In this document: piece after piece, positions 1 through 27,066 of the stretch
Numbering within the stretch: the stretch's first letter is position 1
How the letters are laid out: the number at the start of each line of letters is the position of its first letter
Assembly: GCA_963709295.1 (NCBI GenBank)
Contig: CAVPVW010000003.1
Coordinates: forward strand, 403,283-467,282
Direction: 5' to 3'
Source: an uncultured Chloroflexia bacterium
GTDB lineage: Bacteria > Chloroflexota > Anaerolineae > Anaerolineales > Villigracilaceae
DNA length: 64,000 nucleotides
Position numbers and translations under genes: made by a program
Notes under the pieces: model-generated
The model's database searches: none
What the model was told of the DNA's origin: nothing
The model's input: only the letters and a program-made list of their open reading frames with translations

Positions 1-3
1 GGG

Positions 4-414
4 ATGACTGGCGCTATCACCGCCCTGGGAGACACACTGTTTCCTGCCGAAAGCCTTGTCCAGGGACTTGAGCAAGATTCTGATGCCAACGCTCATTTTC
101 TTATCCGGTTAAGGATCTATCACCCGCTCATTGCAATCCTTGTGGGGGCATATATTTTATATCTCGCTAAATACTTACGAAACCGCGAGGCTGAAAATAC
201 TTCACGCAAGTTAGGTTCAGCATTGTTCGTTCTAATTCTGATACAATGGGCAGCCGGGCTCGTGAATGTCATCCTGCTTGCTCCTGTCCCGATGCAGATT
301 ATTCATCTCCTGATCGCAGACCTGGTCTGGATTACCCTGGTGCTATTTGCGGCTGCGACGCTTTCGCATATGCCCGGTGATAAGAAACCAGATCCGATTC
401 TTGAGGCTGTGTGA
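4..414 (+). CDS. Polytopic membrane protein, C-terminal fragment; possible heme A synthase (CtaA/COX15-like) with paired His-containing TM helices. The 5' end lies outside the window.
   Basis: ORF is open from the window edge. It is hydrophobic with His residues in predicted TM helices (RIYHPLIAIL, MQIIHLLIADL). Its stop overlaps the GTG start of the next gene (GTGA). Confidence 0.35.
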   Translation: MTGAITALGDTLFPAESLVQGLEQDSDANAHFLIRLRIYHPLIAILVGAYILYLAKYLRNREAENTSRKLGSALFVLILIQWAAGLVNVILLAPVPMQIIHLLIADLVWITLVLFAAATLSHMPGDKKPDPILEAV

Positions 415-1898
415 GAAAAAGAGAGACTTCCTACTTATCCCGCTGGTTTTCGCTTGCGCTAATTGTTATTGCAGTCGTGCTTTTAATATTCCAATTGGTG
501 ACTTATAGCAGGCTGCGGACCTACTACCCTCCCGGGATGACCATTGCCGGCATCAAAGTCGGCGGTACAGATCCGCAAACAGCTAGCCAGCGCATACTTC
601 AAGTGTACGCCAATACACCTGTTGAGATCCGCCTCGGGGATCAAATCGTTCAAATGGATCCATCAAGCGCGGGATATGAGATCAACCTGGATTCGATGCT
701 TGCAGCAGCGGATTATGAAAGAACAGGTGGCGCCTTTTGGCTCGGATTTTGGGACTACCTAATAAATCGCCAACCTGCCCCCGCTGTAATCCCTTTAATC
801 GATGCTCTCAACCGCGAACAACTTGACGCTTATCTTTTGAACGAAATCGCAGCGCGATACGATACGCCAGCCATTCCAGCTCAACCGGTGGCCGGGAGTA
901 CACAATTTCAAACCGGTGCCCCAGGCCAATCGCTAGATATTGAGCGTGCAGCAGTTTTGATCGAGGATGCATTGCGTTCGTCATCAAACCGCTCGGTTAC
1001 CTTGCCGTTTTCAGATGTCAGACCGCCTCGGCCATCGGTAGAAAACCTGCAAATACAAATACAGCAAATAATCGATCTGGCCGGATTCGACGGGATTGTT
1101 GGTTTCTATCTCAAAGATTTGCAGTCTGGCGAAGTTCTCCACTTCGCCTACCAGGATGGAGAATTTAAATCGGTCGACCCAGATGTGGCTTTCACCGCTT
1201 CGAGTACGATCAAAATTCCCATCATGATTTCGACTTACAAGAACTCAGGTCCAGCGTTGGATGAGCAAACAAGAGATCTCATCCTGGACATGATCACAAA
1301 ATCTGAGAATCCCCAATCTGATGCATTGATGGCCAAACTCGATGAATACCGTGGACCCCTGATCGTTACCGAGACCCTTAGGCAGCTTGGGATCGAAAAC
1401 ACTTATATTGCCGGTTACTTCAAGGAAGGCGCTTTCCTTCTCGAGAACATTACGACACCCGCGAATTCTCGAACGGATGTGTCCACTAATCCTGACGCTT
1501 ATAATCAGGTCACGCCTTCGGATATTGGAACCATCCTTGAAGACCTTTACCAATGCTCGGTAACGGGGGGAGGCGCACTAATCGCAGCCTTTCCGGGGAA
1601 AATTGATAAGGCAGCCTGCCAGGAAATGATCGATTTTCTAAAACAGGACAGGATCGGCGTTTTGATCGAAGCCGGCGTCCCAGAGGGGACTCAACTCGCC
1701 CACAAGCACGGCTGGATAAGCGGTCCATCGGGAATTATTCAAAACATCAGCGACGCTGCCATTGTTTATACTCCAGGCGGGAACTATATCCTTGCAATTT
1801 ATGTATACCATCCCGTTCAAGCCATCTGGGAGCCTGTGTCGGAAATGATTGCGAAGATTTCCGAAGCATCCTATAACTATTTTAATATTTCAGATTGA
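411..1898 (+). CDS. Membrane-anchored serine hydrolase with a class A beta-lactamase-like / PBP-like fold
   Basis: N-terminal TM anchor. S-x-x-K motif (ASSTIKIP), SxN-like motif (KSENPQS) and a KTG-like KHG motif. 495 aa ORF. Confidence 0.55.
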   Translation: MRKRETSYLSRWFSLALIVIAVVLLIFQLVTYSRLRTYYPPGMTIAGIKVGGTDPQTASQRILQVYANTPVEIRLGDQIVQMDPSSAGYEINLDSMLAAADYERTGGAFWLGFWDYLINRQPAPAVIPLIDALNREQLDAYLLNEIAARYDTPAIPAQPVAGSTQFQTGAPGQSLDIERAAVLIEDALRSSSNRSVTLPFSDVRPPRPSVENLQIQIQQIIDLAGFDGIVGFYLKDLQSGEVLHFAYQDGEFKSVDPDVAFTASSTIKIPIMISTYKNSGPALDEQTRDLILDMITKSENPQSDALMAKLDEYRGPLIVTETLRQLGIENTYIAGYFKEGAFLLENITTPANSRTDVSTNPDAYNQVTPSDIGTILEDLYQCSVTGGGALIAAFPGKIDKAACQEMIDFLKQDRIGVLIEAGVPEGTQLAHKHGWISGPSGIIQNISDAAIVYTPGGNYILAIYVYHPVQAIWEPVSEMIAKISEASYNYFNISD

Positions 1899-1907
1899 TA
1901 TCCTGCG

Positions 1908-2606
1908 ATGAGCGATGCATTAAACCTTTATCGTCTGCAACAATTGGACACACGCCTGGCTCAAATCGAATCCAGGCAAAAAACCATCGCTGAAGCCCTA
2001 ACTTCTAATGCGCAAATGCAGGAAGCAAAATCGATTTTGGAATCGACCGCCGGAAGGAAGCAAGCGGTTTCGCACGAATTAAAGCAAAAAGAAAATGATG
2101 CTGCCGAAAAAAGGGCAAAAATCGACCAGATTGAATCTAATCTTTATGCGGGGAACATCCATAATCCAAAGGAATTGCAGGGCTTGCAAGCGGAACTCGA
2201 CTCGCTGAAACGAAACCTTGCCTCGCTTGAAGACCAGGAACTCCAGGAAATGCTGGCCTTCGACACTTTACAGGATGAATACAAAATCGCATCTGAGAAA
2301 TATGCTGAAATTCTCAATCGAGTCACCCTGGAAAACAAGGACCTGTTAATTGAACAAAGTAATTTGCAGAAGGAAGCAGAGCGTTTAAACGTGGAGCGTC
2401 AAGCAACAACGCAGTCAATCGAAAACAAACATTTATCCCTCTATAATGAGATTCGAGAACAGCGGCATGGAATTGCAGTAACGACTATAACCGACAACTC
2501 CTGCGATTCCTGCGGAGCGGTATTGACCCCTGCGCAGCAGCAGTCTGCACACCATTCCCATCAATTGTACCGATGCCTTTCATGTGGAAGGTTCATTTAC
2601 TCGTAA
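1908..2606 (+). CDS. Coiled-coil protein with a C-terminal C4 zinc ribbon (COG1579-like)
   Basis: Long heptad-rich central region. C-terminal CDSCG...17...CLSCG zinc-ribbon pattern. Confidence 0.55.
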   Translation: MSDALNLYRLQQLDTRLAQIESRQKTIAEALTSNAQMQEAKSILESTAGRKQAVSHELKQKENDAAEKRAKIDQIESNLYAGNIHNPKELQGLQAELDSLKRNLASLEDQELQEMLAFDTLQDEYKIASEKYAEILNRVTLENKDLLIEQSNLQKEAERLNVERQATTQSIENKHLSLYNEIREQRHGIAVTTITDNSCDSCGAVLTPAQQQSAHHSHQLYRCLSCGRFIYS

Positions 2607-2689
2607 ACTGCTCCAGGGCGGACTAACAATCCCCTTTCAAGGGGGCAAAGTCAAAACACAACCGAATAATTCCATAATAAAATAGACCT

Positions 2690-3964
2690 ATGTTCCCGGG
2701 TTTCCGAGTCGAGTTTGATTTGCTTTCATTGATATTGGGTGCCATATTGGCCACGGTTTTTTGGTGGTTGATCCAATTCTTGCGCCCGCAATGGAAACAA
2801 TTTCGCGAAAGCCTTAGAAAGAAAAAGGGCAAGGAAGTCGAAAAGCCATCAAAGGGACTTGAGGACAGGTATCGCAAGCTTGTCATGAGACAAGTACAGT
2901 CGATGCACATGGCAGCATCCCTGTTTTCTTTGGATGAGATCGTCATCCCCCCATTACTTTTGGCACCGCCGGCCCGCATCGAACCAGGCATGACCCATGC
3001 AGAAGAGGATGTGGTCAGCCAAACGCTTCCATACATGCCAGCGTTTCCTGAACTTGCTGCCGCATACAGGGCATCGAGCTTCTCGCTTGCCCAGGCCCTA
3101 GCAGGGAATACAAATCTTGTGCTGATCGGACAACCTGGTTCTGGAAAAACTGTTGCATTAGCCCACTTCGCAAATCAGCTGATAAACCGAGCGCCTGAGA
3201 CCAGCCATCTCAGAGGATACCTTCCATTTATCGCTCACATCAGCGACCTTGATATTCCTCCAAAATCAAACGACTTGATTTATTCCATTACCGATATCCT
3301 TTCAGAGCAGGCATCGGTATTCGATGCAGGGCGGATGCCAAAATTTGTTAGGCAGATCTTCGAGAACGGACAGGCCATTCTTCTGCTTGACGGGCTCGAT
3401 GAGCTTGCCCCTGAAGCTCTCAGGCAGGTCAGCGATTATGTAAAGCAAGTAATAAAGAATTACCCAAAAACGAAGGTGGTAGCAACCGGTACGCCGGAGT
3501 ATATTGACGGGTTTTTCAACATGGGTTTTTCACCCCTCGTGGTCCTTCCCTGGGGCATTGATCAACAAAAAGATTTTCTCGATAAATGGGCCAATCTATG
3601 GACCAGATTTATTTCAAACGAGGCATGGGCACAATCCTCTGTCCTCAGTGTCGACCCGGTCCTTTTGAACCAATGGCTGAGAACCGACGTGGTCAATCTT
3701 ACGCCACTCGAATTCACATTAAAAACATGGGGGGCTTATGCAGGCGATATCCGCGGGTCGCGCCCCATGGACTTCGTGGAAACGCATGTCCGCCGAATGA
3801 TGCCCGCCGGGATTCCCCTCGAGGCATTGGGAGTCCTTGGGTATCAAGTCATCGCCAACACTTCAACGATTTTCGACAGCCACAAAGGAAAGTCGTGGAT
3901 AAAGTCCTTTGAGCCCGCCGATGAGGAAAATGCAAGTACATCCGATTTCTGCGGAAGCCAGTAA
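2690..3964 (+). CDS. STAND/NACHT-type P-loop NTPase with an N-terminal transmembrane helix (N-terminal part of the gene)
   Basis: TM helix at aa ~10-30. Walker A GQPGSGKT, Walker B ILLLDGLDEL, and a GTPEYIDGF segment. The ORF runs straight into the HEAT-repeat ORF in another frame. Confidence 0.6.
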   Translation: MFPGFRVEFDLLSLILGAILATVFWWLIQFLRPQWKQFRESLRKKKGKEVEKPSKGLEDRYRKLVMRQVQSMHMAASLFSLDEIVIPPLLLAPPARIEPGMTHAEEDVVSQTLPYMPAFPELAAAYRASSFSLAQALAGNTNLVLIGQPGSGKTVALAHFANQLINRAPETSHLRGYLPFIAHISDLDIPPKSNDLIYSITDILSEQASVFDAGRMPKFVRQIFENGQAILLLDGLDELAPEALRQVSDYVKQVIKNYPKTKVVATGTPEYIDGFFNMGFSPLVVLPWGIDQQKDFLDKWANLWTRFISNEAWAQSSVLSVDPVLLNQWLRTDVVNLTPLEFTLKTWGAYAGDIRGSRPMDFVETHVRRMMPAGIPLEALGVLGYQVIANTSTIFDSHKGKSWIKSFEPADEENASTSDFCGSQ

Positions 3965-5273
3965 TTCAGATACGCCACCTGTCAATCCGGACGAAATAAT
4001 CGTTGATCAATTTGAAAGCACACAACAAAAGAAAACGAAAAAGAAAGGCGGTGCAAAAGCGCCTGCACCTAAAGCCAGCTTGCTCTCCAAGCTGACGGAT
4101 AGCGGGCTGCTCGAAAACCGCCGTAATGGACGCATACGTTTTGTTCATCTGACCTTTGGAGGGATTCTTGCCGGGGAAGTAATGAATTCGGCCTCCGCGT
4201 CGGTTATCCTCAACCAGGAGCCATGGAGTGGGCGCAGCCTGGCGTTAAATTCTTTCGCAGCCAAGGGCGATGCGTCCGAGATGGTGACCACATTGCTTTC
4301 GCAACAAGATGAAATGCTGGATCGAAATAAATTAATCGCAGGGCGATTCTTACGAGATGCTCCCAGGCAGGCCTCCTGGCGTTCAAAGGTGATGTCCGCT
4401 CTGGTGGAGTTGATAAAGACTGACAAGCCGGTAGCACTTCGAATGCAGGCAATCGCTTCCATCGCCTTAAGCGAAGATCAAACCGGATCGATGCTGTTCA
4501 GGCAGCTCCTGCAATTATCAGATAAGGATATTCGGTGCATGGCCGTACTGGCCAGCGGCGCTATTCGAGATAATAAATCAACCGATCAATTGATAGCATT
4601 AATCGGAGACATCAACCCACAAGTTCAACATGCGGCATGCCTTGCGCTGGTATCCATTGGCACATCTCAATCCCTAGAGGCAGTCGCTCGTGCACTGCTT
4701 CGGGGAGACGAGGGTTTACGCAGAGCAGCTGCCGAATCACTCTCAAACAACCGCGTCGAAGGACATGCCGCCCTGATGGAAGGCAGCAGCGCCAAGGATA
4801 TTCTCCTCCGGCGAGCGGTGGTCTATGGACTGGCAAGACTCCACGAGAAGTGGGTCACTGAAATTCTTGAGAAAATCCAGGTGGAAGATGAGCAATGGGT
4901 GGTCAGAAATGCGGCTGTCGAGGTGCTTGAATCAAGGACCAGGGTAAGCCCGCGTGTCCCCAGAAAACTGCAATCACCCCACGAAGCCCCATGGCTGATA
5001 GAATATGCTGGCAAGTATGGCGTTGGGATTGCTCCCGGCGCGCCTACAACGGACCTGCTTCTTCGGGCACTGAAGAGTGAGAAGGAAGAAGAACGCCTGG
5101 CAGCCTTGGGTTACTTGAAGTACATGCCATCCGAGAGCGTTATGAGCGGGCTCTATCAAATCTTCTTCTCGACTGATGATGCGCCAATGAAGGAAACTAT
5201 ATACCTGATCCTATGGGAATTTGCACTGGGAGGGATTAAAATTCCTTCTCCGATGCAGTACGGGCTGGGCTAA
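3909..5273 (+). CDS. HEAT / PBS-lyase repeat region; most likely the C-terminal sensor half of the same NACHT gene, joined by an apparent frameshift at ~3909-3964
   Basis: RFVHLTFGGILAGE resembles the post-NTPase FxH..F.E.LAA winged-helix motif of NACHT proteins. It is followed by repeated HEAT-like units (e.g. NPQVQHAACLALVSIG, RRAAAESL). It overlaps the upstream ORF by 56 nt in a different frame. Confidence 0.5.
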   Translation: MSPPMRKMQVHPISAEASNSDTPPVNPDEIIVDQFESTQQKKTKKKGGAKAPAPKASLLSKLTDSGLLENRRNGRIRFVHLTFGGILAGEVMNSASASVILNQEPWSGRSLALNSFAAKGDASEMVTTLLSQQDEMLDRNKLIAGRFLRDAPRQASWRSKVMSALVELIKTDKPVALRMQAIASIALSEDQTGSMLFRQLLQLSDKDIRCMAVLASGAIRDNKSTDQLIALIGDINPQVQHAACLALVSIGTSQSLEAVARALLRGDEGLRRAAAESLSNNRVEGHAALMEGSSAKDILLRRAVVYGLARLHEKWVTEILEKIQVEDEQWVVRNAAVEVLESRTRVSPRVPRKLQSPHEAPWLIEYAGKYGVGIAPGAPTTDLLLRALKSEKEEERLAALGYLKYMPSESVMSGLYQIFFSTDDAPMKETIYLILWEFALGGIKIPSPMQYGLG

Positions 5274-5325
5274 GCCAAATTCTCTGCGGTGTGTTCCTCA
5301 GGGAATTCAGTCAAAGGATTTCAAT

Positions 5326-6678
5326 ATGCTTATAATCCATGCAACACTCGTAACCTGGGAAAAACCTAACCGGATCCTGGCGGATCATGGATTGTTCATC
5401 GGGCAGGATGGAAAAATTGAGGACATAGGTCCTTCTCGTGAAATCATAGCCCGCCATCCTGGGGCTCTTCTCCTGGATGCGCAATCTCAGCTTGTACTCC
5501 CTGGAAATATTTGCGCGCACACCCATTTTTATGGAGCTTTTGCAAGAGGCATGGCTGTACACGGGAAACCGCCCATTGCGTTTCCGGATATCCTTAAACA
5601 GCTATGGTGGCCTCTGGATCAAGCCCTGTCCGAAGATGACATCCGATATTCAACATTGGTATGCCTGGTAGATGCCATCAGGCATGGAACGACAACCTTA
5701 TTTGATCATCACGCATCCCCGAACTTTATAGACGGATCCTTGGATGTTATCGCCGAATCGGTTCAGCAATCCGGACTAAGGGCGGTGCTGTGTTATGAAG
5801 TAACCGATCGCGGAGGAAAAGAAAAAGCAAGTGCAGGTATAAATGAAAATGTGCGTTTTATAAAAAAGGTTGCCAACAACAGGACTCCGCATTTGGCTGC
5901 CACTTTCGGGCTTCATGCGCCGTTGACGTTATCAGATAGGACGCTTGATTCCTGCCTGGCAGCTCACCCGTCCCATGGCGGATTTCACACCCATCTCTCT
6001 GAGAGTCTCTGGGACGCCAGACAAGTGAAAAAGGACGGTCACGGGACGCCGACCGGTTGGTTTAAGAAGCATGGCATCTTGGGACCGAAATCCATCGCAG
6101 CGCATTTTGTCCACTCAACAAAAGCTGAGCGAAAAATGATTGCCGAATCGGGCACATGGATCACCCACCAGCCGCGGTCCAACATGAACAACGGTGTCGG
6201 AGTCGCACCGGTGGAGGAGTTACTTGACGCAGGGATTAAAGTCTGCCTAGGGAATGACGGATTTTCAAATAATATGTACGAGGAATGGAACGCTGCTTAT
6301 TTGCTCCCGAAATCCCATCAAAAAGACCCGCGCGCGATGCATGGTTATAAAATTGTGGATATCGGAATTTACAACAATGCTGCTCTGGCTAACACGTTTT
6401 TCCCCGTAGAACTTGGAGCCATTAAACCAGGCGCGGCTGCGGATCTGGTTTTCATAGACTACAACCCGTACACAGAATTGAGCGATGGGAATCTACCCTG
6501 GCACATCTTGTTCGGCTTTCGATCCGGGATGGTGACGACAACCATCGTCAACGGCAAGGTCTTGATGAGGAACAGAGAACTGACCACCCTGGATGAAGAT
6601 CAGATCATGCGGCGTTCCAGAGAATTGTCAGTCCAGGTCTGGAAAAGGTACGATAAGCAATTTAAATCATCTCGTTAG
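5326..6678 (+). CDS. ssnA: Putative aminohydrolase SsnA (amidohydrolase superfamily, selenium/purine-associated)
   Basis: Strong recognizable similarity to E. coli SsnA: HTHFYGAFARGM (E. coli HNHFYSGLSRGI), LWWPLDQALSEDD (LWWRLDRALDEE), DHHASP, ENVRF. The start at 5326 has an AAAGGA RBS. Confidence 0.7.
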   Translation: MLIIHATLVTWEKPNRILADHGLFIGQDGKIEDIGPSREIIARHPGALLLDAQSQLVLPGNICAHTHFYGAFARGMAVHGKPPIAFPDILKQLWWPLDQALSEDDIRYSTLVCLVDAIRHGTTTLFDHHASPNFIDGSLDVIAESVQQSGLRAVLCYEVTDRGGKEKASAGINENVRFIKKVANNRTPHLAATFGLHAPLTLSDRTLDSCLAAHPSHGGFHTHLSESLWDARQVKKDGHGTPTGWFKKHGILGPKSIAAHFVHSTKAERKMIAESGTWITHQPRSNMNNGVGVAPVEELLDAGIKVCLGNDGFSNNMYEEWNAAYLLPKSHQKDPRAMHGYKIVDIGIYNNAALANTFFPVELGAIKPGAAADLVFIDYNPYTELSDGNLPWHILFGFRSGMVTTTIVNGKVLMRNRELTTLDEDQIMRRSRELSVQVWKRYDKQFKSSR

Positions 6679-6687
6679 GATACTCAC

Positions 6688-7386
6688 ATGGAAACCGACA
6701 AACGATGGACCATAGCGGTACTGGGGGGAACAGGCAAAGAAGGCAAAGGACTCGCTTCAAGGTGGGCAAAAGCCGGGTTATCGGTGGTCATTGGCTCAAG
6801 GAACATTGACAGGGCCAAGGAGGCTGCAGCAGAAATTAATTCGGCCAAATGTCCCATTTCGGTGCAGGGAAAAGATAATTTAAATGCGGCACGCGCAGCC
6901 GATATTGTTGTTCTCTCGGTGCCCTATTCAGCCCATCGGGAGACACTCGAAACAGTAAAATCCGCCTTGCAGGGAAAAATTCTTGTTGACGTTACGGTGC
7001 CATTGGTGCCTCCCAAGGTAACCAAAGTCCAGATGCCGCCTGCGGGATCCGCCGCACTCGAAGCAAGAGAAATCCTTGGTGACACTGCCGAAATCGCATC
7101 TGCCTTCCAAAACATATCTTTCGAACACCTTCAAGGGGATCACGAGATCGGCTGCGATGTTCTTGTCACCGGTACAAGCAAAGAAACCCGGGCAGTTGCA
7201 TTGGACTTGGTCTCGCAAGCCGGATTGGCAGGCTGGGACGCAGGTCCTTTGGAGAACTCGATGGTGGCTGAAGGTCTCACCAGCATACTGATCCATATCA
7301 ATAAGATCTACGGCGCCAACCATGCCGGAATTAAAATTACCGGTGTGCCGGATAAAAATCAACCCTCTCGGGAAATCACAAAGTAA
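6688..7386 (+). CDS. npdG: NADPH-dependent F420 reductase (F420H2:NADP+ oxidoreductase)
   Basis: N-terminal Rossmann motif IAVLGGTGKEGKGLASRWAKAGLSVVIGSR, typical of the Fno/NpdG family. ~230 aa. Confidence 0.65.
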   Translation: METDKRWTIAVLGGTGKEGKGLASRWAKAGLSVVIGSRNIDRAKEAAAEINSAKCPISVQGKDNLNAARAADIVVLSVPYSAHRETLETVKSALQGKILVDVTVPLVPPKVTKVQMPPAGSAALEAREILGDTAEIASAFQNISFEHLQGDHEIGCDVLVTGTSKETRAVALDLVSQAGLAGWDAGPLENSMVAEGLTSILIHINKIYGANHAGIKITGVPDKNQPSREITK

Positions 7387-8155
7387 ATGGCTTTATCGCT
7401 AATCCCACTCAAGGGGATCCCGATTATCACCCCAGGCTTGGACCTTGCCGAGGTGATAATAAAGGGTATGAACTCCTCCAACCTTGAACTTCAAGGCAAT
7501 GACATAATCGTCATCGCACAAAAAATAGTAAGCAAGTCCGAAGGGAGGCTGGTTAATCTTGCAACCGTTACCCCTTCCAGAGTCTGCAATCGAGCTGGGG
7601 ATCAAAGCAGACAAGGATCCGCGGCTGGTTGAATTAATCCTGAGAGAAAGCAACAAGGTACTTCGCACGCGCCCGGGAACGATCATCGTCGAGCACAAAT
7701 TGGGCTTCATATGTGCCAGCGCAGGAATTGACCATTCCAACGTAAGAGGCGAAGGAAACGCAAACGAAGAGTGGGTTTTACTCCTCCCCGAGAATCCCGA
7801 CGAGACTGCTCGTATTATCAGAAAATCCTTGGAAAAAAAATACGGCGTGCCGATCGGTGTGCTCATCAACGATTCGCATGGTCGCGCATGGCGCATCGGA
7901 ACAGTCGGGATAACCGTCGGGATCAGCGGCATTCCCGCGGTCGTTGATGAACGGGGGTGGAAGGATCTCACTGGGTTTAAATTGAGGATAACGGAGGTCG
8001 GGGCTGCCGATGAGTTGGCTGCAGCAGCCTCCCTTGTGATGGGTCAGGCTGCTGAAGGGACCCCAATTGTCCATGTTCGTGGTTTTCCTTATCCCCTGCG
8101 GGAAAGCCATCTCGGAGAGCTCCTAAGACCGAAGGATCAAGACTTATTCAGGTAA
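7387..8155 (+). CDS. cofE: Coenzyme F420-0:L-glutamate ligase CofE (FbiB N-domain-like), interrupted by an apparent 1-nt frameshift at ~7575-7585
   Basis: Frame 1 (7387-7632) gives the CofE N-terminus ...IAQKIVSKSEGRLVNL. Frame 2 (from 7559) continues PESAIELGIKADKDPRLVELILRESNKVLRTRPGTIIVEHKLGFICASAGIDHSNV. The frame switch is at ACCCCTTCCAGAGTC. Confidence 0.6.
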
Positions 8156-8178
8156 TCCCCCGATTGAAGAGGATCAAA

Positions 8179-8577
8179 ATGACAAAAATTCCTGACAGCC
8201 ACCTGGATTTACTAAAAGACGAATCAAAAGCCATCGCCTACCTGGCCACGATCATGAAAGATGGCTCCCCTCAAGTCACACCCGTCTGGTTCAACTTCGA
8301 TGGCGAGAATATTTTTATTAATTCCGCAGAAGGTCGTATCAAGGACCGAAATATGCGCTCGCGCCCCATCATCGCCATAACCATTCAGGATCCTGCCACC
8401 TTTTACCGGTATTTACAATTGCGAGGCAAGGTGATCGGCTTTTCCCACGACGGCGCCGACGACCACATCGATGCGCTGTCGTTCAAATACACTGGCAAGC
8501 CTCAATACGAATGGCGAAACAAGAACGAAAAAAGGATCAAATACAAGGTCCAGATCGACAAAGTGGATGCGCACTAA
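8179..8577 (+). CDS. PPOX-class (pyridoxamine 5'-phosphate oxidase-like) F420-dependent enzyme family protein
   Basis: Small split-barrel protein. The motif QVTPVWFNFDGENIFINSAEGRIK is typical of PPOX-class F420/FMN-binding proteins. GAAGAGGA RBS before the ATG at 8179. Confidence 0.5.
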   Translation: MTKIPDSHLDLLKDESKAIAYLATIMKDGSPQVTPVWFNFDGENIFINSAEGRIKDRNMRSRPIIAITIQDPATFYRYLQLRGKVIGFSHDGADDHIDALSFKYTGKPQYEWRNKNEKRIKYKVQIDKVDAH

Positions 8578-9180
8578 GTGGACGCCCAACTCTTTCTTCG
8601 ATCACGGCGAAGCGTTAGAAGGTTCAGTGAACAGCCTGTAGACACCAACCTGCTCAAACGCATCATTGAAACGTCAACGTATGCCCCTTCGGCGCACAAC
8701 CGCCAACCCTGGCGATATGCTGTCATTGCCTCCCAGCGCATGAAAAAAGCATTGGCGGATGGCATGGCAGCAGAATTTGAACGCGACCTGTCAAAGGATG
8801 GTCTTGCGGAAGTTGAAATCCATCGCAGATTGGAGCGGTCCCGGAATCGAATCGAGCAGGCGCCGGTCGTGATCATTCTCTGCCTTGACGAATCAAATCT
8901 CGACCAATACAGTGACGACCGAAGGCAAGGCGCGGAAACGATCATGGGCATCCAGTCCATATCGATGGCAGGGCTTCAACTCCTGTTGGCAGCGACCGCC
9001 GAAGGGCTGGGGGGAGTCTGGACATGCGGTCCCCTCTTTGCGCAAGATTACGTCCGATCGGTTCTTCAACTTCCCGGGCCATGGAAACCGCAAGGCATGA
9101 TCCTTTTGGGTTATCCAGGCGAAACTCCTCAAGGCAAAGACATCAAATCCATCGAAGAAGTCGTGAAATTCATCGATTAA
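8578..9180 (+). CDS. Nitroreductase-family protein; stand-alone homolog of the FbiB C-terminal (dehydro-F420-0 reductase) domain
   Basis: RRSVRRF...PSAHNRQPWRY nitroreductase N-terminal signature. Sits between cofE and cofD. Confidence 0.5.
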   Translation: MDAQLFLRSRRSVRRFSEQPVDTNLLKRIIETSTYAPSAHNRQPWRYAVIASQRMKKALADGMAAEFERDLSKDGLAEVEIHRRLERSRNRIEQAPVVIILCLDESNLDQYSDDRRQGAETIMGIQSISMAGLQLLLAATAEGLGGVWTCGPLFAQDYVRSVLQLPGPWKPQGMILLGYPGETPQGKDIKSIEEVVKFID

Positions 9181-9200
9181 TTTCAAAAAACGGAGAGGCG

Positions 9201-10136
9201 ATGAAGATCGTTGCCCTGGCAGGTGGCGTGGGTGGAGCAAAGCTGGTGGATGGATTGGCGCAGATCCTGCCGGCTGAAGATTTAACCGTGGTGGTCAATA
9301 CAGGAGATGATTTTCACCACTGGGGATTGAAAATTTGCCCGGATTTGGATACCGTTTGTTACACCGTCGCCGGACTGGCTAACCCCGAAACAGGTTGGGG
9401 GCGCAATAATGAAACCTGGAATGTGATTTCCGAGATCTCCCGGTTGAACGGGGTTGACTGGTTCAGAATCGGGGACCGCGATCTCGCCACCCACATAGAA
9501 AGGACAGAACGGCTCGCATCCGGCCAGAGACTCTCTGAGATTGTTCACGACTTCTGCCAATCCTGGGGGATCGAAATCACGATTTTACCCATGTCCGACG
9601 ACCCCGTCGAGACCATTGTCATTACTGCCGAACATGGCGAATTGGCATTCCAGGAATATTTTGTTCACCAACATTGTGATCCAAAAGTCAAAGGTTTTAA
9701 GTTTGCCGGAGTTGAGTTCTCGAGACCGGCCATCGGAGTATTGGAATCAATTGCAGGTGCGGATGCCGTTATCTTATGCCCGTCCAACCCCTGGGTAAGT
9801 TTGGATCCAATTCTGTCCGTACCCGGCATCCTCCCGGCGATTAAATCCAGAAAAATTGTTGCAGGGGTCTCGTCCATCGTAGGTGGAGCCGCCATCAAAG
9901 GACCAGCTGCAAAAATGTTCTCGGAGTTGAACATCGAACCCTCTGCATTCGCGGTTGCTCAACAATACAAAGGGATGATTTCGCATTTCGTCATTGATTT
10001 AATCGACCACGATCTTGAGCGAAATATTTCCAGCCTGGGGATGAAAACGACTGCCGTCAACACGGTGATGAAAACCCGGGATGACCGACGCCAGCTTGCC
10101 TCAGATGTGCTAAACTTTGTGCAGAGAGCGGCATGA
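9201..10136 (+). CDS. cofD: 2-phospho-L-lactate transferase CofD (LPPG:FO transferase)
   Basis: MKIVALAGGVGGAKLVDGL...VVNTGDDFHHWGL..PDLDTVCYTVAG is the CofD family signature. GGAGAGG RBS. Stop overlaps the cofC start (ATGA). Confidence 0.75.
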   Translation: MKIVALAGGVGGAKLVDGLAQILPAEDLTVVVNTGDDFHHWGLKICPDLDTVCYTVAGLANPETGWGRNNETWNVISEISRLNGVDWFRIGDRDLATHIERTERLASGQRLSEIVHDFCQSWGIEITILPMSDDPVETIVITAEHGELAFQEYFVHQHCDPKVKGFKFAGVEFSRPAIGVLESIAGADAVILCPSNPWVSLDPILSVPGILPAIKSRKIVAGVSSIVGGAAIKGPAAKMFSELNIEPSAFAVAQQYKGMISHFVIDLIDHDLERNISSLGMKTTAVNTVMKTRDDRRQLASDVLNFVQRAA

Positions 10137-10756
10137 CCATTTGGGCAATCGTACCCGTTAAGCCATTGTTAGTTGGAAAATCCCGACTGGGCAGCGTCCT
10201 CTCCGGCGAGGAACGCGCCAGGCTGAGCCGGATGCTGCTCGAAAGAACGCTTGGAGTTTTGAAGGATACGCCCAGCATCGATGGTTCATTGGTCGTGAGC
10301 AGGGATCCCGAGGCACTGGCGATTGCACGCCAGTTTGGTTGCAGAACGGTGTTGGAACATGGACAAACTCAAACCGATCTAAACCTGGCTCTTTTACGGG
10401 CGACGACCGTCGCAAAGGCGTTCGAAATCAATGGGATACTGGTGCTTCCGGCCGATCTTCCGCTGATTTCCCCGGAGGATATCCAAGCCCTGGTGGATCA
10501 AACCGTAAAATCTCCGGTGGTCATCATCGCCCCGGACCGTCATAACGATGGGACGAATGCCATGCTCATGAGTCCGCCGGGATTGATTAAATTTGATTAC
10601 GGTCCGAATTCCTTCAATCGCCATTGCATGCACGCACTGGAGGCTGGCGCCAAGTTGGAGATCGTAAGGCGGGTGAATCTGGGTCTTGACCTGGATTTCC
10701 CGGATGACCTGGATTATTTCGAACAAATCCAAACTACAAGACAGGAGACGAAATGA
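10133..10756 (+). CDS. cofC: 2-phospho-L-lactate (or PEP) guanylyltransferase CofC/FbiD
   Basis: [19 protein letters not shown] is the classic CofC N-terminus. ~207 aa. Translationally coupled on both sides (ATGA overlaps). Confidence 0.65.
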
Positions 10757-11754
10757 CCAAGAGAGCAGCACTTTACTTGCAGGATTCGCACGACCTTCGA
10801 GACGGGCTCGACTACGTGAAATACGCCGAAGAGAAAGGTTTTGAGGCAGTCTGGCAGGCGGAATCGCGCCTGGTACGCGATGCCATCGTCCCCATGGCAG
10901 CGTACGCAGCCGTCACAAATCGGATCAAAGTCGGCTCAGGTGTCATCAACAACTGGACGCGAAACATCGGCCTGCTGGCCGCCACCTACCTGACGCTGGA
11001 TGACCTGGCTCCGAACCGAATTATCTGCGGAATTGGCGCCTGGTGGGATCCGCTTGCGAAAAATGTCGGCATTGACCGCCGCAAACCACTCACCGCGATG
11101 AAAGAAACCGTGTTGATCATGCGGCAGCTGCTCAAACTCGAGCGGGTCACCTTCCATGGTGAATTCATCCACGTGGACGGAATTGAATTGGACGTCGTTC
11201 ACGGCCGCAGGGAGCCTCGAAACGTGCCGCTCATGATCGGAGCGACAGGCGACCAGATGATGGAACTCACAGGTGAAATTGCCGACGGCGCGGTGCTCAA
11301 TTATTGCGTCCCACCCGACTACAACCACAAAGCTCTTGAGCTGCTCGAAAAAGGGGCTAAAAAAGCCGGACGCAGCCTGAACGACCTGGACCGGCCGCAA
11401 CTTATCGTCTGCTCGGTTGACCAGGATCACGACCGGGCCATCGAGACGTCCAAAATGCTGCTCTGCCAATATCTCGCGCAGCAGCCTCACATCGCCAAGG
11501 CCAGCGGAGTCGCCCAAGACGTTGTGACTGAAATCCAGTCGATCCTTGGGTGGCCAGCCACCAAGGAACAGATCAACAAGGCGAAATATCTCGTCCCTGA
11601 TGACCTGGTATTACGCATCACAGCTTCGGGTACGCCCGAAGAAGCCAAGCAGAAAGTTAAGGAATACGAAAACAATGGGTGCACTTGCCCGATCCTTTAC
11701 CCGGTCGGCGGAAATGTGAGACTCCTTATCGATACGTTTGGCACACCCGCGTAA
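10753..11754 (+). CDS. LLM-class (luciferase-like) flavin/F420-dependent oxidoreductase
   Basis: TIM-barrel LLM motifs ([44 protein letters not shown]). Position directly after cofC. Confidence 0.6.
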
Positions 11755-24065: not shown

Positions 24066-24086
24066 AGACTACATTTCGAGGACATT

Positions 24087-27066
24087 ATGAATATTACTTT
24101 GCACATTAATGGGAAAGACCATACCCTGGACATCCCCCCCGAGATGACATTGCTAAAAACACTCCGTCAATTGGGCTTTCACGGAGTCAAATTCGGGGAT
24201 GAACAAGGGATCAGTGGCGCAGATACCGTTCTCCTCGATGGCCGGCCAGTCAATGCCGGGCTGATGTTCGCTGCTCAAGCCGAAGGCCGCAAAATCGCCA
24301 CGATCGAAGCCCTTGGCGAACATCCGGACCAGGGCTGGCAAAAAACCGGCGGGTTGCATCCCATCCAGAAAGCATTCATAGAAAACGGGGCAATCCAATG
24401 TGGTTATTGCACCCCAGCCCAGGTGCTGGCTGCCAAGGCGCTACTGGACACAAATCCGAATCCTTCCGAAATCGAAGTGCGGGAAGCGCTGTCGGGAGTG
24501 CTTTGTCGCTGTACAGGTTACGCCAAGCCGGTACAGGCTGTCCTTAAAGCGGCTGCCGTGATGCGGGGGGAAGATCAATTCGATGGCAAGGAATACCTTA
24601 TTCCGGATGACAATCCTCCTTCTCCCTTACCCTCCAATGACGATTTGCCCGGAACAAACGGAGTGCAACTCAGCGTGATGCCCAAAGTCATCTTTGCGCC
24701 AAAGACATCGATTTACCAAACCGTGGGTAAGCCGGAAATTAAAGTGGATGCCATCAAGCTCGTGCAAGGGAAACCTGCCTTTGCTGCGGATATGGATCCC
24801 CGAGGGCTGCTGCATGCGAAGGTGCTCAGGTCACCGCATGCCCATGCCCGAATTAAAAGCATCGACACAACCAAAGCCAAGGCACTTCAGGGAGTCGCTG
24901 CAATCCTGACATGGAAAGACATCCCCCGGGTGGTGTACTCAACTGCCGGGCAGTCTGATCCAATCCCTGGCCCACTGGACACATTCTCTCTTGATAGCAA
25001 GGTCCGGTTTGTCGGTGATCGCGTGGCTTTTGTCGCGGCTGAATCGCCTGAAATCGCAGAGAAAGCCTGCAGGTTGATCGACGTCGAATACGAAGTGCTT
25101 GAACCGATTCTGGAATCGTCAAAAGCGCTGAACAATCAAGATAATCGCATCCATGATGAGTCTGAGTATGTCAATTTTGCGGGGTCGGATGCCGCCAGGA
25201 ACCTGGCCGCGGAAATCCGTATCGATATCGGTGACGTGGAAAAAGGATTCAGCGAGGCCGATGAGGTTTTTGAAGGCGTTTACGATGTGCCGAAGGTCCA
25301 GCAGGCGCATATCGAACCGCATGTCTGCATCACCTACTGGGACGAAGATGACCGCTTGGTCATACGTACATCGACGCAAGTCCCCTTCCACGTGCGGAGA
25401 ATGCTTGCTCCGGTTTTAGGCTTGCCGGTCAAGCGTATCCGCGTGATCAAGCCGCGAATAGGCGGCGGCTTCGGGGGAAAGCAGGAAGTCCTGATGGAAG
25501 ATGTGGCTGCGCACCTGACCATCGCCACAAAACGTCCGGTGCTTTACGAATATACCCGTGAAGAGGAGTTTATCGCAGCGCGCTCCCGTCATCCCATGAG
25601 GATTTGGATGAAAACCGGCGTAAAGCGCGATGGGACCTTGACGGCCAACGAGATGAAAGTACTCTCGGACACAGGCGCTTATGGCTGCCACGCTCTCACG
25701 GTGACCGGCAACACCGGGCACAAATCCATGGCGCTTTATGTTGGCGATGGCGCGTATCGCAAAGCGCCCAACATTCGTTTTTACGCGGACATCGTCTACA
25801 CCAACACTCCCCCGGCTGGAGCGTACCGAGGCTATGGCGTCCCTCAAGGATATTGGCCGGTCGAACGCCACATGGAAAAGATCGCCCGGGCGATGGGGTT
25901 AGATCCGCTCGAATTCAGGCTGAAAAATGCCATCCGTCCGGGCGAATACCATCCCTTCAGCACCGCCTGGAACGAAGGCCGGAAACCTCGTCCTGAGATC
26001 ATCCACACGGTCGGGTTGGAGCAATGCGTCCAGCAGGGAAAAGCAGCCATCGGTTGGGACGACAAAATTGACAATGCCGAATGGCACGACAACAAAACAT
26101 CAGGTAAGAGTTACTCTAAAAAAGGCATTGGTGTCGCGATGGTCATGCAAGGGACAGCCATCCCTTATCTGGACATGGGAGGCGCCTCCATCAAGATGAA
26201 CGACGACGGTTCCTTCAATCTCCTGGTCGGCGCAACCGACTTGGGGACCGGGTCAGATACCGTTCTTGCACAAATGGCGGCAGAAGTTTTGGGTGTGCCG
26301 TTGGATGACATCCTCACCTATTCGTCGGACACGGATTTCACCCCCTTCGACAAGGGGGCGTATGCATCCTCCACCACGTATATCTCCGGGACGGCCGTAG
26401 TGAAGGCGGCAGAAATCGCCGCGGATAAAATCAAGCAAAGGGCTGCCTTACTCCTTGATCTTGAAAGAGCATACCACTATCATCCTTAAAGATAAAAAAG
26501 CCAATGCTCCGGATGGGCGAAGCGTGACGCTTTCCGAAATCGCGCTCGATTCTCTTCACCGCCAGAAACAGGAACAAATCATGGGCGTGGCTTCGTACGT
26601 TTCACCTTCCTCGCCTCCTCCTTTTGCGGCCCAATTCGCAGAGGTTACTGTCGATCAGGAAACGGGCCAGGTCACTGTTGATAAACTCGTCATGGCCGTG
26701 GATTCCGGCATCATCGTCAATCCACTCACGGCTTCCGGACAAATTGAGGGCGGCATGATCCAGGCGCTTGGCTATGCGGTGTGTGAAGAGATGCGGTATG
26801 ATTCCCAAGGCAATGCCCGCGAGAAGGATTTCCTGGACTACCATATCTTCCGAGCCGACGAAGTTCCAGCCCTGGAGACGATCTTTGTGGAAACCTTCGA
26901 GCCCAGCCACCCCTTTGGGGTCAAAGCCGTGGCGGAAATCCCAATGGACGGAGTCGCTCCGGCAGTGGGGAATGCCATTTTGGATGCCGTGGGCGTAAAT
27001 ATCGATGAGAATCCAACCACGCCTGAGCGGGTGTGGAGAGCCTTGAAGAAATTAACACCGGCATAG
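24087..27066 (+). CDS. Molybdenum hydroxylase with fused [2Fe-2S] and molybdopterin-binding domains (XdhD-like xanthine dehydrogenase family), interrupted by an apparent frameshift at ~26465-26480
   Basis: N-terminus carries 2Fe-2S Cys clusters (IQCGYCTPAQV, LCRCTGY). It is followed by aldehyde oxidase/XDH a/b-hammerhead and MoCo domains. The ORF at 26455 in frame +1 continues the C-terminal MoCo dimerization domain (GVASYVSPSS...VNPLTASGQIEGG). Confidence 0.7.

What the first reader, a model, noticed from the sequence alone, without database searches (positions are those of the whole stretch)
2690..5273. Membrane-anchored NACHT-HEAT STAND NTPase: candidate bacterial NACHT (antiviral/signalling) protein
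The architecture is an N-terminal TM helix plus ~100-aa head, a NACHT-type P-loop NTPase (Walker A, Walker B, post-NTPase FxH-like motif) and C-terminal HEAT repeats. The ORF is split 2690-3964 / 3909-5273 by an apparent frameshift. Bacterial NACHT proteins with repeat sensors and diverse N-terminal effectors are now known as anti-phage systems. A TM helix as effector would fit an abortive-infection membrane disruptor. It is preceded by a COG1579-type zinc-ribbon coiled-coil gene.
Basis: partly seen in the sequence, partly recalled or inferred. Interest (0 to 1): 0.55.

Follow-up and report, generated by a model that had tools for sequence, protein, structure and literature searches.

The report
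Conserved membrane-anchored NACHT-HEAT ATPase, probably not antiviral
This is a real gene for a membrane-tethered NLR-like (NACHT) ATPase with a HEAT-repeat tail, but it sits at the same housekeeping locus in every Anaerolineales genome sampled, so it looks like a lineage-conserved cellular switch rather than an anti-phage system, and its "frameshift" is most likely an assembly error.

Summary
Window 2690-5273 (+) encodes one 860-aa protein: N-terminal TM helix, NACHT NTPase module, disordered insert, about 11 HEAT repeats. It is interrupted by one extra base at about 3951.

The break is probably an assembly error.
- The closest relative (L004) and 78 of 81 orthologous loci have one uninterrupted ORF.
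- At least three other window genes are split the same way, including gatA, which I take to be essential.
- dN/dS against L004 is below 0.1 on both sides of the break.

The antiviral reading is not supported.
- The gene was found only in Anaerolineales/Chloroflexota genomes: 175 species genomes and at least 555 clusters at 50% identity, with lengths of 830-870 aa.
- In the 80 loci retrieved it occurs once per genome.
- It lies in fixed synteny: beta-lactamase-like, CT398-like zinc ribbon, NACHT-HEAT, amidohydrolase, then F420 genes.
- Its divergence tracks that of its neighbours.
- The HEAT part is as conserved as the ATPase.
- No effector domain, no defence-model match, no defence neighbours and no viral-contig relatives were found.

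Best reading: an uncharacterised, vertically inherited, cytoplasm-facing STAND switch or scaffold for an endogenous process. A link to the CT398-like RNA-polymerase-binding neighbour is possible but untested. It is a new member of a known kind, of modest interest.

The parts
1908..2606 (+). CT398/CdsZ-like coiled-coil hairpin plus C4 zinc-ribbon gene (232 aa). It is the conserved gene immediately upstream.
   Evidence: Pfam CT398_CC E 1.1e-16; Zn_ribbon_9 at 21.9 bits, below its cut-off. It lies directly upstream on the same strand in 59 of 62 full-length loci, with a median intergenic distance of 9 nt.
2690..3950 (+). First part of the NACHT-HEAT gene (frame 2): residues 1-420. It covers the TM anchor, the pre-NACHT segment, the NBD, the helical domain and the start of the winged helix.
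2720..2785 (+). N-terminal transmembrane helix (residues about 11-32), followed by a K/R-rich stretch. The inferred topology puts a short N-terminus outside and the rest of the protein in the cytoplasm.
   Evidence: Hydrophobicity is conserved in 62 of 67 orthologues, with a net charge of +2 in the 20 residues after the helix. AF2 predicts one long helix, 11-49. The topology follows from the positive-inside rule and is an inference.
3116..3499 (+). NACHT P-loop NTPase core (Pfam match to residues 143-270), with Walker A at 3128-3151 and Walker B DGLDE at 3377-3403.
   Evidence: Pfam NACHT 32.6 bits, above the gathering score of 26.7. GxxGxGK[TS] and DGxDE are invariant in 67 of 67. The best Foldseek PDB matches are NOD2, NLRC4 and NLRP3.
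3951..3951 (+). Single extra base that shifts the frame from 2 to 0. The exact position can only be placed between about 3933 and 3955. It lies inside the variable, disordered insert.
   Evidence: Alignment to L004 and L005. P0028 (90% identical) reads through the site.
3923..4076 (+). Disordered, acidic then lysine-rich insert in the winged-helix region (residues 412-462), variable in length and sequence.
   Evidence: pLDDT 26-34. Column conservation is 0.27, against about 0.65 elsewhere. In P0126 it is expanded to several hundred residues.
3952..5273 (+). Second part of the gene (frame 0): residues 421-860 plus the stop codon. It covers the rest of the winged helix, including RFVH (4137-4148), and the HEAT solenoid.
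4206..5270 (+). HEAT/ARM-type alpha-solenoid (residues about 506-860, about 22 helices), with a conserved C-terminal motif PWxIxxA..G.G..P..P.T.
   Evidence: Pfam HEAT_2 E 4e-21. AF2 pLDDT is 80-94. Foldseek matches alphaRep, the PP2A A subunit and CpcE/F. Conservation is 0.67 and dN/dS is 0.087.
411..1898 (+). Membrane-anchored beta-lactamase-fold (PF13354) protein. It is a frequent but not universal upstream neighbour.
   Evidence: Pfam Beta-lactamase2 E 8e-20. It is present upstream in most loci and absent in about a dozen that keep the CT398 gene.

Best explanation
The region encodes one intact gene for an 860-aa, single-pass, membrane-tethered NACHT-clade STAND NTPase with a C-terminal HEAT solenoid. 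The apparent split is a one-base insertion error of the assembly.

The protein belongs to an uncharacterised orthologous family that I found only in Anaerolineales/Chloroflexota genomes. Its divergence tracks that of its neighbours, as expected for vertical inheritance. Its locus is fixed, immediately downstream of a CT398-like coiled-coil zinc-ribbon gene.

The mechanism is inferred from what is established for NACHT/STAND proteins. The N-terminal helix holds the protein on the cytoplasmic face of the membrane. In the resting state the winged-helix histidine (RFxH) and the P-loop hold ADP, and the HEAT solenoid folds back on the NTPase. Binding of a conserved endogenous ligand or partner protein to the HEAT solenoid permits nucleotide exchange and oligomerisation at the membrane. 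No enzymatic effector is present, so the output would be recruitment or scaffolding of other proteins. The co-transcribed CT398-like factor is one candidate partner.

Shown here: the architecture, the intact catalytic motifs, the conservation, the synteny and the purifying selection. Inferred: the topology, the switch cycle, the endogenous ligand and the partner.
For: One gene and an assembly error:
- 78 of 81 orthologous loci have a single ORF, including L004, the closest relative.
- The window carries a +1 base at 3951 relative to L004.
- At least three other genes in the same 64 kb are split within a Pfam domain: cofE, a xanthine-dehydrogenase Mo subunit and gatA.
- dN/dS against L004 is 0.072 upstream and 0.091 downstream of the break.

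NACHT membership:
- The Pfam NACHT match is above its gathering score.
- DGxDE, the P-loop and RFxH are invariant or nearly so.
- The AF2 model has pLDDT 76.8 and pTM 0.78, and its best PDB matches are ADP-bound NOD2, autoinhibited NLRC4 and NLRP3.

Lineage-conserved and not defence-like:
- 175 relatives in GTDB species genomes. The 80 retrieved are all Anaerolineales, Anaerolineae or Chloroflexota, one per genome.
- 555 representatives of 50%-identity clusters score E <= 1e-30, and nearly all of the best 150 are 830-870 aa.
- The gene order Blac - CT398 - NACHT-HEAT - amidohydrolase - npdG - cofE is constant.
- Pairwise identities correlate with those of the neighbours, rho 0.47-0.71.
- HEAT conservation is 0.67 against 0.64 for the NBD.
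- No PADLOC or NCBIfam defence model matches, and no viral-contig relatives were found.

Link to CT398:
- It lies directly upstream in 59 of 62 loci, with a median gap of 9 nt.
- CT398-family proteins are reported to bind sigma-54/RNAP and are predicted to bind RNAP beta' (bioRxiv 10.64898/2026.07.15.738315).
Against: - No experiment or expression data exist for any member, so the endogenous ligand and the output are unknown.
- Tight gene spacing is not specific to the CT398/NACHT pair. The downstream amidohydrolase often abuts the NACHT-HEAT stop as well, so operon packing alone may explain the adjacency.
- One genome has an intact orthologue elsewhere, without the CT398 gene (L060). Another has lost everything after residue 352 while keeping CT398 (L002). 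The pair is therefore separable and the gene is not strictly essential.
- Conserved, chromosomally fixed immune genes do exist, so conservation lowers the probability of a defence role but does not exclude it.
- Without reads, a genuine recent frameshift cannot be excluded. Neither inserted base lies in a long homopolymer.
Confidence: 0.62

Rival explanations
1. Anti-phage bNACHT or Avs-like abortive-infection protein. The HEAT solenoid recognises a phage protein, the NACHT module oligomerises, and the clustered N-terminal TM helices disrupt the membrane.
For: The layout is a NACHT module with a C-terminal repeat sensor and an N-terminal TM segment. Kibby et al. list TM and HEAT/TPR/LRR architectures among bacterial NACHT proteins. 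STAND conflict systems are enriched in multicellular bacteria such as Chloroflexi (PMC7159879).
Against: - Locus and architecture are fixed across the 80 species-level loci retrieved, and divergence tracks the neighbours.
- The sensor is as conserved as the ATPase, with dN/dS 0.087. Kibby et al. instead describe effector domains that vary between close relatives.
- A single TM helix is the only candidate 'effector'.
- No defence HMM matches beyond the P-loop: EruA scores 19.5 bits against a cut-off of 1000, and PDC-S60 has E 1e-3.
- Neighbours are CtaA, a beta-lactamase-like protein, an amidohydrolase and F420 biosynthesis genes, with no defence genes within 5-10 kb. This fails the context criterion used in PMC13581612.
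- No relatives were found in IMG/VR.
Confidence: 0.12
2. The frameshift is genuine. In this organism the gene is a recent pseudogene, or is expressed as two polypeptides: a TM-NBD fragment that lacks the winged-helix His, and a separate WHD-HEAT fragment starting at TTG 3909, ATG 3921 or ATG 3930.
For: The extra base is present in the sequence and is not in a long homopolymer. Start codons exist in frame 0 just upstream of the break. The family can be lost: L002 keeps only residues 1-352.
Against: At least four genes in 64 kb carry the same kind of break, including gatA next to gatC. Glu-tRNA(Gln) amidotransferase subunit A is essential as far as I know, and that rests on my own knowledge. cofE carries a +1 base relative to L004 in the same way. 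Other long-read MAGs of the family (L001, L003, L043) show breaks at different positions, amid many other broken genes. There is no relaxation of constraint downstream of the break, where dN/dS is 0.091.
Confidence: 0.12
3. A static membrane scaffold. The NACHT fold is retained, but the protein does not cycle as a ligand-gated switch. The HEAT solenoid simply anchors a cytoplasmic partner, for example an envelope or division factor, at the membrane.
For: There is no effector domain. The HEAT domain is highly conserved. The position where many STAND proteins carry a sensor-1 arginine is G/A/S in all 67 orthologues, reading TT[GA].
Against: Walker A Lys, Walker B Asp/Glu and the winged-helix His are invariant or nearly so in 67 orthologues, which argues that nucleotide binding and hydrolysis are used. 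NLRC4, a working NACHT switch, also lacks that arginine (TTTTE). This is from my recollection of its sequence, supported only by a weak profile match to 5aj2 over this stretch.
Confidence: 0.1

Closest known systems
Bacterial NACHT (bNACHT) anti-phage proteins (Kibby et al., bioRxiv 10.1101/2022.07.19.500537)
   Same: It has a NACHT NTPase module with the DGxDE Walker B and a winged-helix His. It carries a C-terminal superstructure-forming repeat domain. TM segments and HEAT repeats are among the architectures listed for bNACHT proteins.
   Different: There is no enzymatic or adaptor effector. The architecture and locus are fixed across the 80 species-level loci retrieved, rather than patchy with variable effectors. 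The repeat domain is under strong purifying selection. Neither PADLOC nor NCBIfam anti-phage NACHT models match it.
Animal NLRs NOD2, NLRC4 and NLRP3
   Same: These are the best structural matches to the predicted model over the NBD-HD1-WHD region: Foldseek E 4e-8 to 5e-7, against the ADP-bound or autoinhibited forms. The P-loop, Walker B and WHD-His logic is the same.
   Different: Sequence identity is 11-13%. The C-terminal solenoid is HEAT rather than LRR. The N-terminus is a membrane anchor rather than a CARD or PYD. Sequence searches against the PDB find almost only the P-loop.
Non-immune signal-transduction STANDs (MalT, AfsR/GutR-type regulators; the 'non-defence STAND clades' of PMC13581612)
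   Same: It is a chromosomally conserved STAND with a repeat sensor that presumably reads an endogenous signal. The published STAND phylogeny shows non-defence clades interspersed with defence clades.
   Different: Those regulators carry DNA-binding output domains and belong to other STAND clades, which I state from my own knowledge. Here there is no DNA-binding domain, the protein is membrane-anchored and the module is NACHT-type.
CT398/CdsZ, HP0958 and MSMEG_4306 family (the upstream neighbour, not the finding itself)
   Same: Gene 1908-2606 has the same coiled-coil hairpin plus C4 zinc ribbon.
   Different: Known members are linked to sigma-54/RNAP and to flagellar or T3SS export. I found no report of an association with a STAND NTPase.

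Membership tests
NACHT clade of STAND P-loop NTPases (Pfam PF05729) | The profile match reaches the curated gathering score. | tested here: met
   32.6 bits against a cut-off of 26.7, residues 143-270. Precomputed PF05729 hits are recorded on most of the homologues listed.
NACHT clade of STAND P-loop NTPases (Pfam PF05729) | Walker A GxxGxGK[ST], and a Walker B with a tiny residue after the Asp and a second acidic pair two positions on (hhhhDGxDE). This definition follows Koonin and Aravind 2000 and Leipe et al. 2004 as I recall them. | tested here: met
   GQPGSGKT and LLLDGLDE. G147, G150, G152, K153, D234, G235, D237 and E238 are invariant in 67 of 67 orthologues.
NACHT clade of STAND P-loop NTPases (Pfam PF05729) | NBD-HD1-WHD fold with a conserved winged-helix histidine. 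| tested here: met
   The AF2 model's best PDB matches are NOD2, NLRC4 and NLRP3. RFxH has His in 64 of 67, followed by an invariant LAG.
NACHT clade of STAND P-loop NTPases (Pfam PF05729) | Sensor-1 arginine after strand beta-4 (the TSR/TTR motif). | tested here: not met
   The position is G, A or S in all 67 orthologues, reading TT[GA]xPE. This is not disqualifying, because NLRC4 also lacks it (from my memory of its sequence; weak alignment).
HEAT repeat proteins (Pfam PF13646 HEAT_2) | The profile match is above its cut-off and the fold is an alpha-solenoid. | tested here: met
   E 4.3e-21, 75.4 bits against a cut-off of 27.7. The model has about 22 helices at pLDDT 80-94, and Foldseek matches alphaRep, PP2A-A and CpcE/F.
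Anti-phage bNACHT / Avs-type defence STANDs | A recognisable effector domain (nuclease, protease, TIR, sirtuin, EAD/Death-like, multi-TM and so on) fused to the STAND. | tested here: not met
   Pfam, NCBIfam and PADLOC find nothing outside NACHT and HEAT. The N-terminus is one TM helix plus a conserved 80-aa pre-NACHT segment with no family match.
Anti-phage bNACHT / Avs-type defence STANDs | Defence-island context or proximity to known defence genes (the criterion used in PMC13581612). | tested here: not met
   Neighbours in the window and in L001-L003 are housekeeping or metabolic genes. PADLOC on 10 neighbours gave only a generic oxidoreductase model 5.4 kb away. The same synteny holds in about 80 genomes.
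Anti-phage bNACHT / Avs-type defence STANDs | Match to a curated defence-protein model. | tested here: not met
   The best PADLOC hit is PDC-S60 at E 1.2e-3. NCBIfam EruA scores 19.5 bits against a cut-off of 1000, over the P-loop only.
Anti-phage bNACHT / Avs-type defence STANDs | Patchy, horizontally mobile distribution and a rapidly diversifying sensor. | tested here: not met
   There is one copy at one locus in each of the 80 loci retrieved. Identities correlate with those of the neighbours. HEAT dN/dS is 0.087. No IMG/VR relatives were found. Strain-level presence or absence was not tested.
Anti-phage bNACHT / Avs-type defence STANDs | Protection against phage, or phage-protein-triggered cell death. 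| not testable with these tools
   This needs an experiment.

The most novel reading that the evidence does not exclude
The family is a housekeeping NLR-like signalling device of filamentous Chloroflexota. It would be a membrane-tethered NACHT-HEAT switch that, depending on nucleotide state, captures or releases the co-transcribed CT398-like RNA-polymerase-binding protein, in the manner of an anti-sigma factor. It might respond to an envelope signal relayed by the neighbouring membrane-anchored beta-lactamase-fold, peptidoglycan-binding protein. This would be a bacterial, non-immune counterpart of peptidoglycan sensing by NOD2. Nothing here tests the interaction. It rests only on the conserved adjacency (median gap 9 nt in 59 of 62 loci) and on reports that CT398-type proteins bind RNAP.
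Probability: 0.1. Interest if true: 0.7.

Novelty: new member of a known kind. Interest (0 to 1): 0.3.

Why it matters
NACHT/NLR-like proteins in bacteria are now usually read as immune sensors. This family is a counter-example worth recording. In every genome sampled it is a full-length NACHT-repeat protein at one housekeeping locus. Its 'sensor' is under purifying selection and it has no effector.

For annotation pipelines and defence-system hunters, the lesson is that a NACHT domain plus repeats plus a TM segment is not enough to call defence. For Chloroflexota biology, it marks an uncharacterised conserved membrane-associated ATPase that may act with a CT398-type RNAP-associated factor.

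For this assembly, at least four genes in 64 kb are broken by single-base indels. Split ORFs in this window should therefore not be read as biology.

Tried and rejected
- Programmed frameshift: rejected. 78 of 81 orthologous loci are single ORFs. The few breaks in other MAGs lie at different positions. The window's site sits in a non-conserved linker.
- CT398-NACHT gene fusion as 'Rosetta stone' evidence: rejected. P0083 (1078 aa) starts with a CT398-like sequence, but its second CxxC is replaced by out-of-frame-looking residues. This looks like a read-through artefact.
- Missing sensor-1 arginine as a sign of an inactive ATPase: considered and down-weighted. All other nucleotide-binding motifs are invariant, and NLRC4 has the same feature.
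- The first word-indexed protein search found only 42 partial or broken homologues, none over 709 aa. That briefly suggested recurrent breakage. The exhaustive HMM search and the genome loci showed that full-length proteins of 830-870 aa are the norm.
- The genome scan with the 13-sequence alignment A1 failed because no stretch was conserved enough. A trimmed 6-sequence alignment worked.
- The profile search against PDB sequences gave essentially only P-loop matches, to midasin.
- The afdb50 fold library was not available.
- The promoter and terminator scan of 1-7500 was at chance level, and no + strand terminator separates the genes.
- Rfam found nothing in the window.
- Co-folding CT398 with NACHT-HEAT was not attempted. 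The structure tool returns no inter-domain error or contact information, and a paired alignment from genome loci would not be accepted.
Full report
**What is in the sequence.** ORF1 matches Pfam NACHT above its gathering score (32.6 against 26.7 bits) and also AAA_22. ORF2 matches HEAT_2 at E 4e-21. The upstream gene 1908-2606 is a CT398-type coiled-coil hairpin with a CxxC...CxxC zinc ribbon.

**The two ORFs are one gene.**
- P0028, a 90%-identical metagenomic protein, reads continuously across the junction.
- Deleting any one base between about 3946 and 3951 gives an 860-aa protein. It is collinear with its homologues over its whole length.
- A DNA alignment with the closest genome locus, L004, places one uncompensated extra base in the window at 3951 (CTGCGG versus CT-CGG). 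L004 is 90.5% identical to the window over 11.9 kb.

**Is the frameshift real?** Probably not.
- 78 of 81 orthologous loci carry the gene as a single uninterrupted ORF, including L004 and L005.
- The window contains at least three further genes split inside a Pfam domain:
  - cofE, 7387-7632 | 7559-8155, again a +1 base relative to L004.
  - A xanthine-dehydrogenase-type Mo subunit, 24066-26489 | 26404-27066.
  - gatA, 62926-63519 | 61895-63058 on the minus strand, next to gatC.
- Four breaks in 64 kb, one of them in gatA (which I take to be essential, from my own knowledge), point to indel errors of the assembly.
- The other split orthologues (L001, L003, L043) are in long-read MAGs. In L001 and L003, where gene calls were retrieved, many neighbouring genes are also broken. 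Their breaks lie at different positions.
- dN/dS between the window and L004 is 0.072 upstream and 0.091 downstream of the break. There is no relaxation of constraint.
- The break lies in a disordered, poorly conserved insert. Without reads, a very recent genuine mutation cannot be excluded. I put it at about 0.1.

**Anatomy of the merged protein.** The AF2 model has pLDDT 76.8 and pTM 0.78.
- Residues about 11-32 form a hydrophobic helix followed by a K/R-rich stretch. This is conserved in 62 of 67 orthologues. By the positive-inside rule, the bulk of the protein should be cytoplasmic.
- Residues 56-135 are the best-conserved segment (0.70). They have no family match.
- Residues 136-290 are the NTPase core. 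G-x-x-G-x-G-K-[TS] and D-G-x-D-E are invariant in 67 of 67.
- A helical domain and a winged helix follow, carrying R-F-x-H (His in 64 of 67) and an invariant LAG.
- The winged-helix region is interrupted by a disordered acidic and lysine-rich insert, residues 412-462. Its pLDDT is about 30 and its conservation 0.27. In one homologue it is expanded to several hundred residues.
- Residues about 506-860 are a HEAT solenoid of about 22 helices (pLDDT 80-94).
- Foldseek against the PDB puts ADP-bound NOD2, autoinhibited NLRC4 and NLRP3 first (E 4e-8 to 5e-7). HEAT proteins follow: alphaRep, the PP2A A subunit and CpcE/F.
- The usual sensor-1 arginine position is G/A/S throughout the family. I do not weigh this heavily, because NLRC4 is similar (from memory; weak alignment).

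**Distribution and context.**
- A pattern scan of one genome per GTDB species found 175 relatives. The 80 loci retrieved are all from Anaerolineales, Anaerolineae or Chloroflexota assemblies, one per assembly.
- An exhaustive profile search of 1.84 billion cluster representatives found 555 with E <= 1e-30. Nearly all of the best 150 are 830-870 aa and align from residue about 1-8.
- tblastn with the window's neighbours shows the same order and strand almost everywhere: (CtaA) - beta-lactamase-fold protein - CT398-like - NACHT-HEAT - (amidohydrolase) - npdG - cofE. Three loci with precomputed Pfam calls confirm this and extend it to the rest of an F420 biosynthesis cluster.
- The CT398-like gene is directly upstream in 59 of 62 full-length loci, with a median gap of 9 nt. 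Spacing to the downstream amidohydrolase is often just as tight, so tight packing is not specific to that pair.
- Pairwise identities of the NACHT-HEAT proteins correlate with those of the flanking proteins: rho 0.71 for Blac, 0.69 for CT398, 0.51 for npdG and 0.47 for cofE. This is as expected for vertical co-inheritance.
- There are exceptions. L060 has an intact 860-aa copy in a different neighbourhood. L002 keeps only residues 1-352, after a rearrangement.

**Defence or not.** Every test available here goes against a defence role.
- No effector domain is present.
- No PADLOC or NCBIfam anti-phage model matches beyond the P-loop.
- There are no defence genes among the neighbours in the window, or in L001-L003, where precomputed Pfam calls were available. 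This fails the context criterion used in the published STAND survey (PMC13581612).
- No relatives were found among 2.9 million viral contigs.
- The putative sensor is as conserved as the ATPase: 0.67 against 0.64 column conservation. HEAT dN/dS is 0.087 against 0.131 for the NBD. Kibby et al. instead describe effector variability between close relatives.
- That STAND survey explicitly notes non-defence clades interspersed among defence clades.
A conserved immune gene is still conceivable, and I leave it at about 0.12.

**Most likely function.** The protein is a cytoplasm-facing, membrane-tethered STAND switch or scaffold that reads a conserved endogenous ligand or partner through its HEAT solenoid. 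It would signal by nucleotide-dependent oligomerisation or recruitment, since it has no enzymatic output. The intact, invariant nucleotide-binding motifs argue that it cycles.

The upstream CT398-like protein is a candidate partner. Family members are reported to bind sigma-54/RNAP and are predicted to lie across RNAP beta'. This link is only an inference from adjacency. The two genes can also be separated.

**Novelty.** The kind is known: a NACHT-clade STAND with repeats. The specific orthologous family has no curated model and no characterised member in the libraries and literature I could search. I file it as a new member of a known kind, of modest interest. Its main value is as a caution against reading every NACHT-repeat protein as antiviral, and as a pointer to a conserved unknown in Chloroflexota.

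Noticed in passing
window 7387-8155 (+): cofE (F420-0:gamma-glutamyl ligase) is split into 7387-7632 and 7559-8155 by one extra base at about 7579 relative to L004. This is the same kind of break as in the finding.
   Followed up: yes
window 24066-27066 (+): A xanthine-dehydrogenase/aldehyde-oxidase-type molybdopterin subunit is split inside its MoCoBD_2 domain. Profile positions 5-143 fall in 24066-26489 and 149-283 in 26404-27066.
   Followed up: partly
window 61895-63836 (-): gatA (Amidase family) is split. Profile positions 9-140 fall in 62926-63519 and 144-444 in 61895-63058, downstream of gatC (63477-63836). A break in this gene, which I take to be essential, points to assembly indel errors at roughly 1 per 16 kb.
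   Followed up: partly
window 6688-11754 (+): A conserved F420 cluster lies downstream of the finding: npdG, cofE, a PNPOx-like protein, a nitroreductase-like protein, cofD and cofC. Most related loci share the npdG-cofE part, and L001 and L003 show the full cluster.
   Followed up: partly
L002 10001-11467 (GCA_041301925.1, 4.4-Mb contig): The orthologue ends after residue about 352 and a GH38 alpha-mannosidase gene follows. The HEAT part and the downstream F420 synteny are gone while the CT398-like gene remains. This looks like a genuine loss by rearrangement in one lineage.
   Followed up: partly
L060 7299-9881: An intact 860-aa orthologue lies in a different neighbourhood, with a phosphotransferase-like gene and a GAF histidine kinase upstream. 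No CT398-like or beta-lactamase-like gene lies nearby.
   Followed up: partly
protein P0126 (1124 aa), insert corresponding to window 3923-4076: The disordered insert in the winged-helix region is expanded to several hundred residues of repetitive E/K-rich sequence (repeated 'KKETRAEKKARKQREKEEKK' units) in one homologue.
   Followed up: no
protein P0083 (1078 aa): This is an apparent fusion of the CT398-like protein to the NACHT-HEAT protein. The second CxxC of the zinc ribbon is missing, so it looks like a frameshift read-through rather than a true fusion.
   Followed up: partly
window 2607-2689: The CT398-to-NACHT spacer is about 84 nt here and in L004 and L005, against a median of 9 nt elsewhere. 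It contains a small hairpin (CCCCTT-TCA-AAGGGG, about 2631-2644) without a T-run on the + strand.
   Followed up: no
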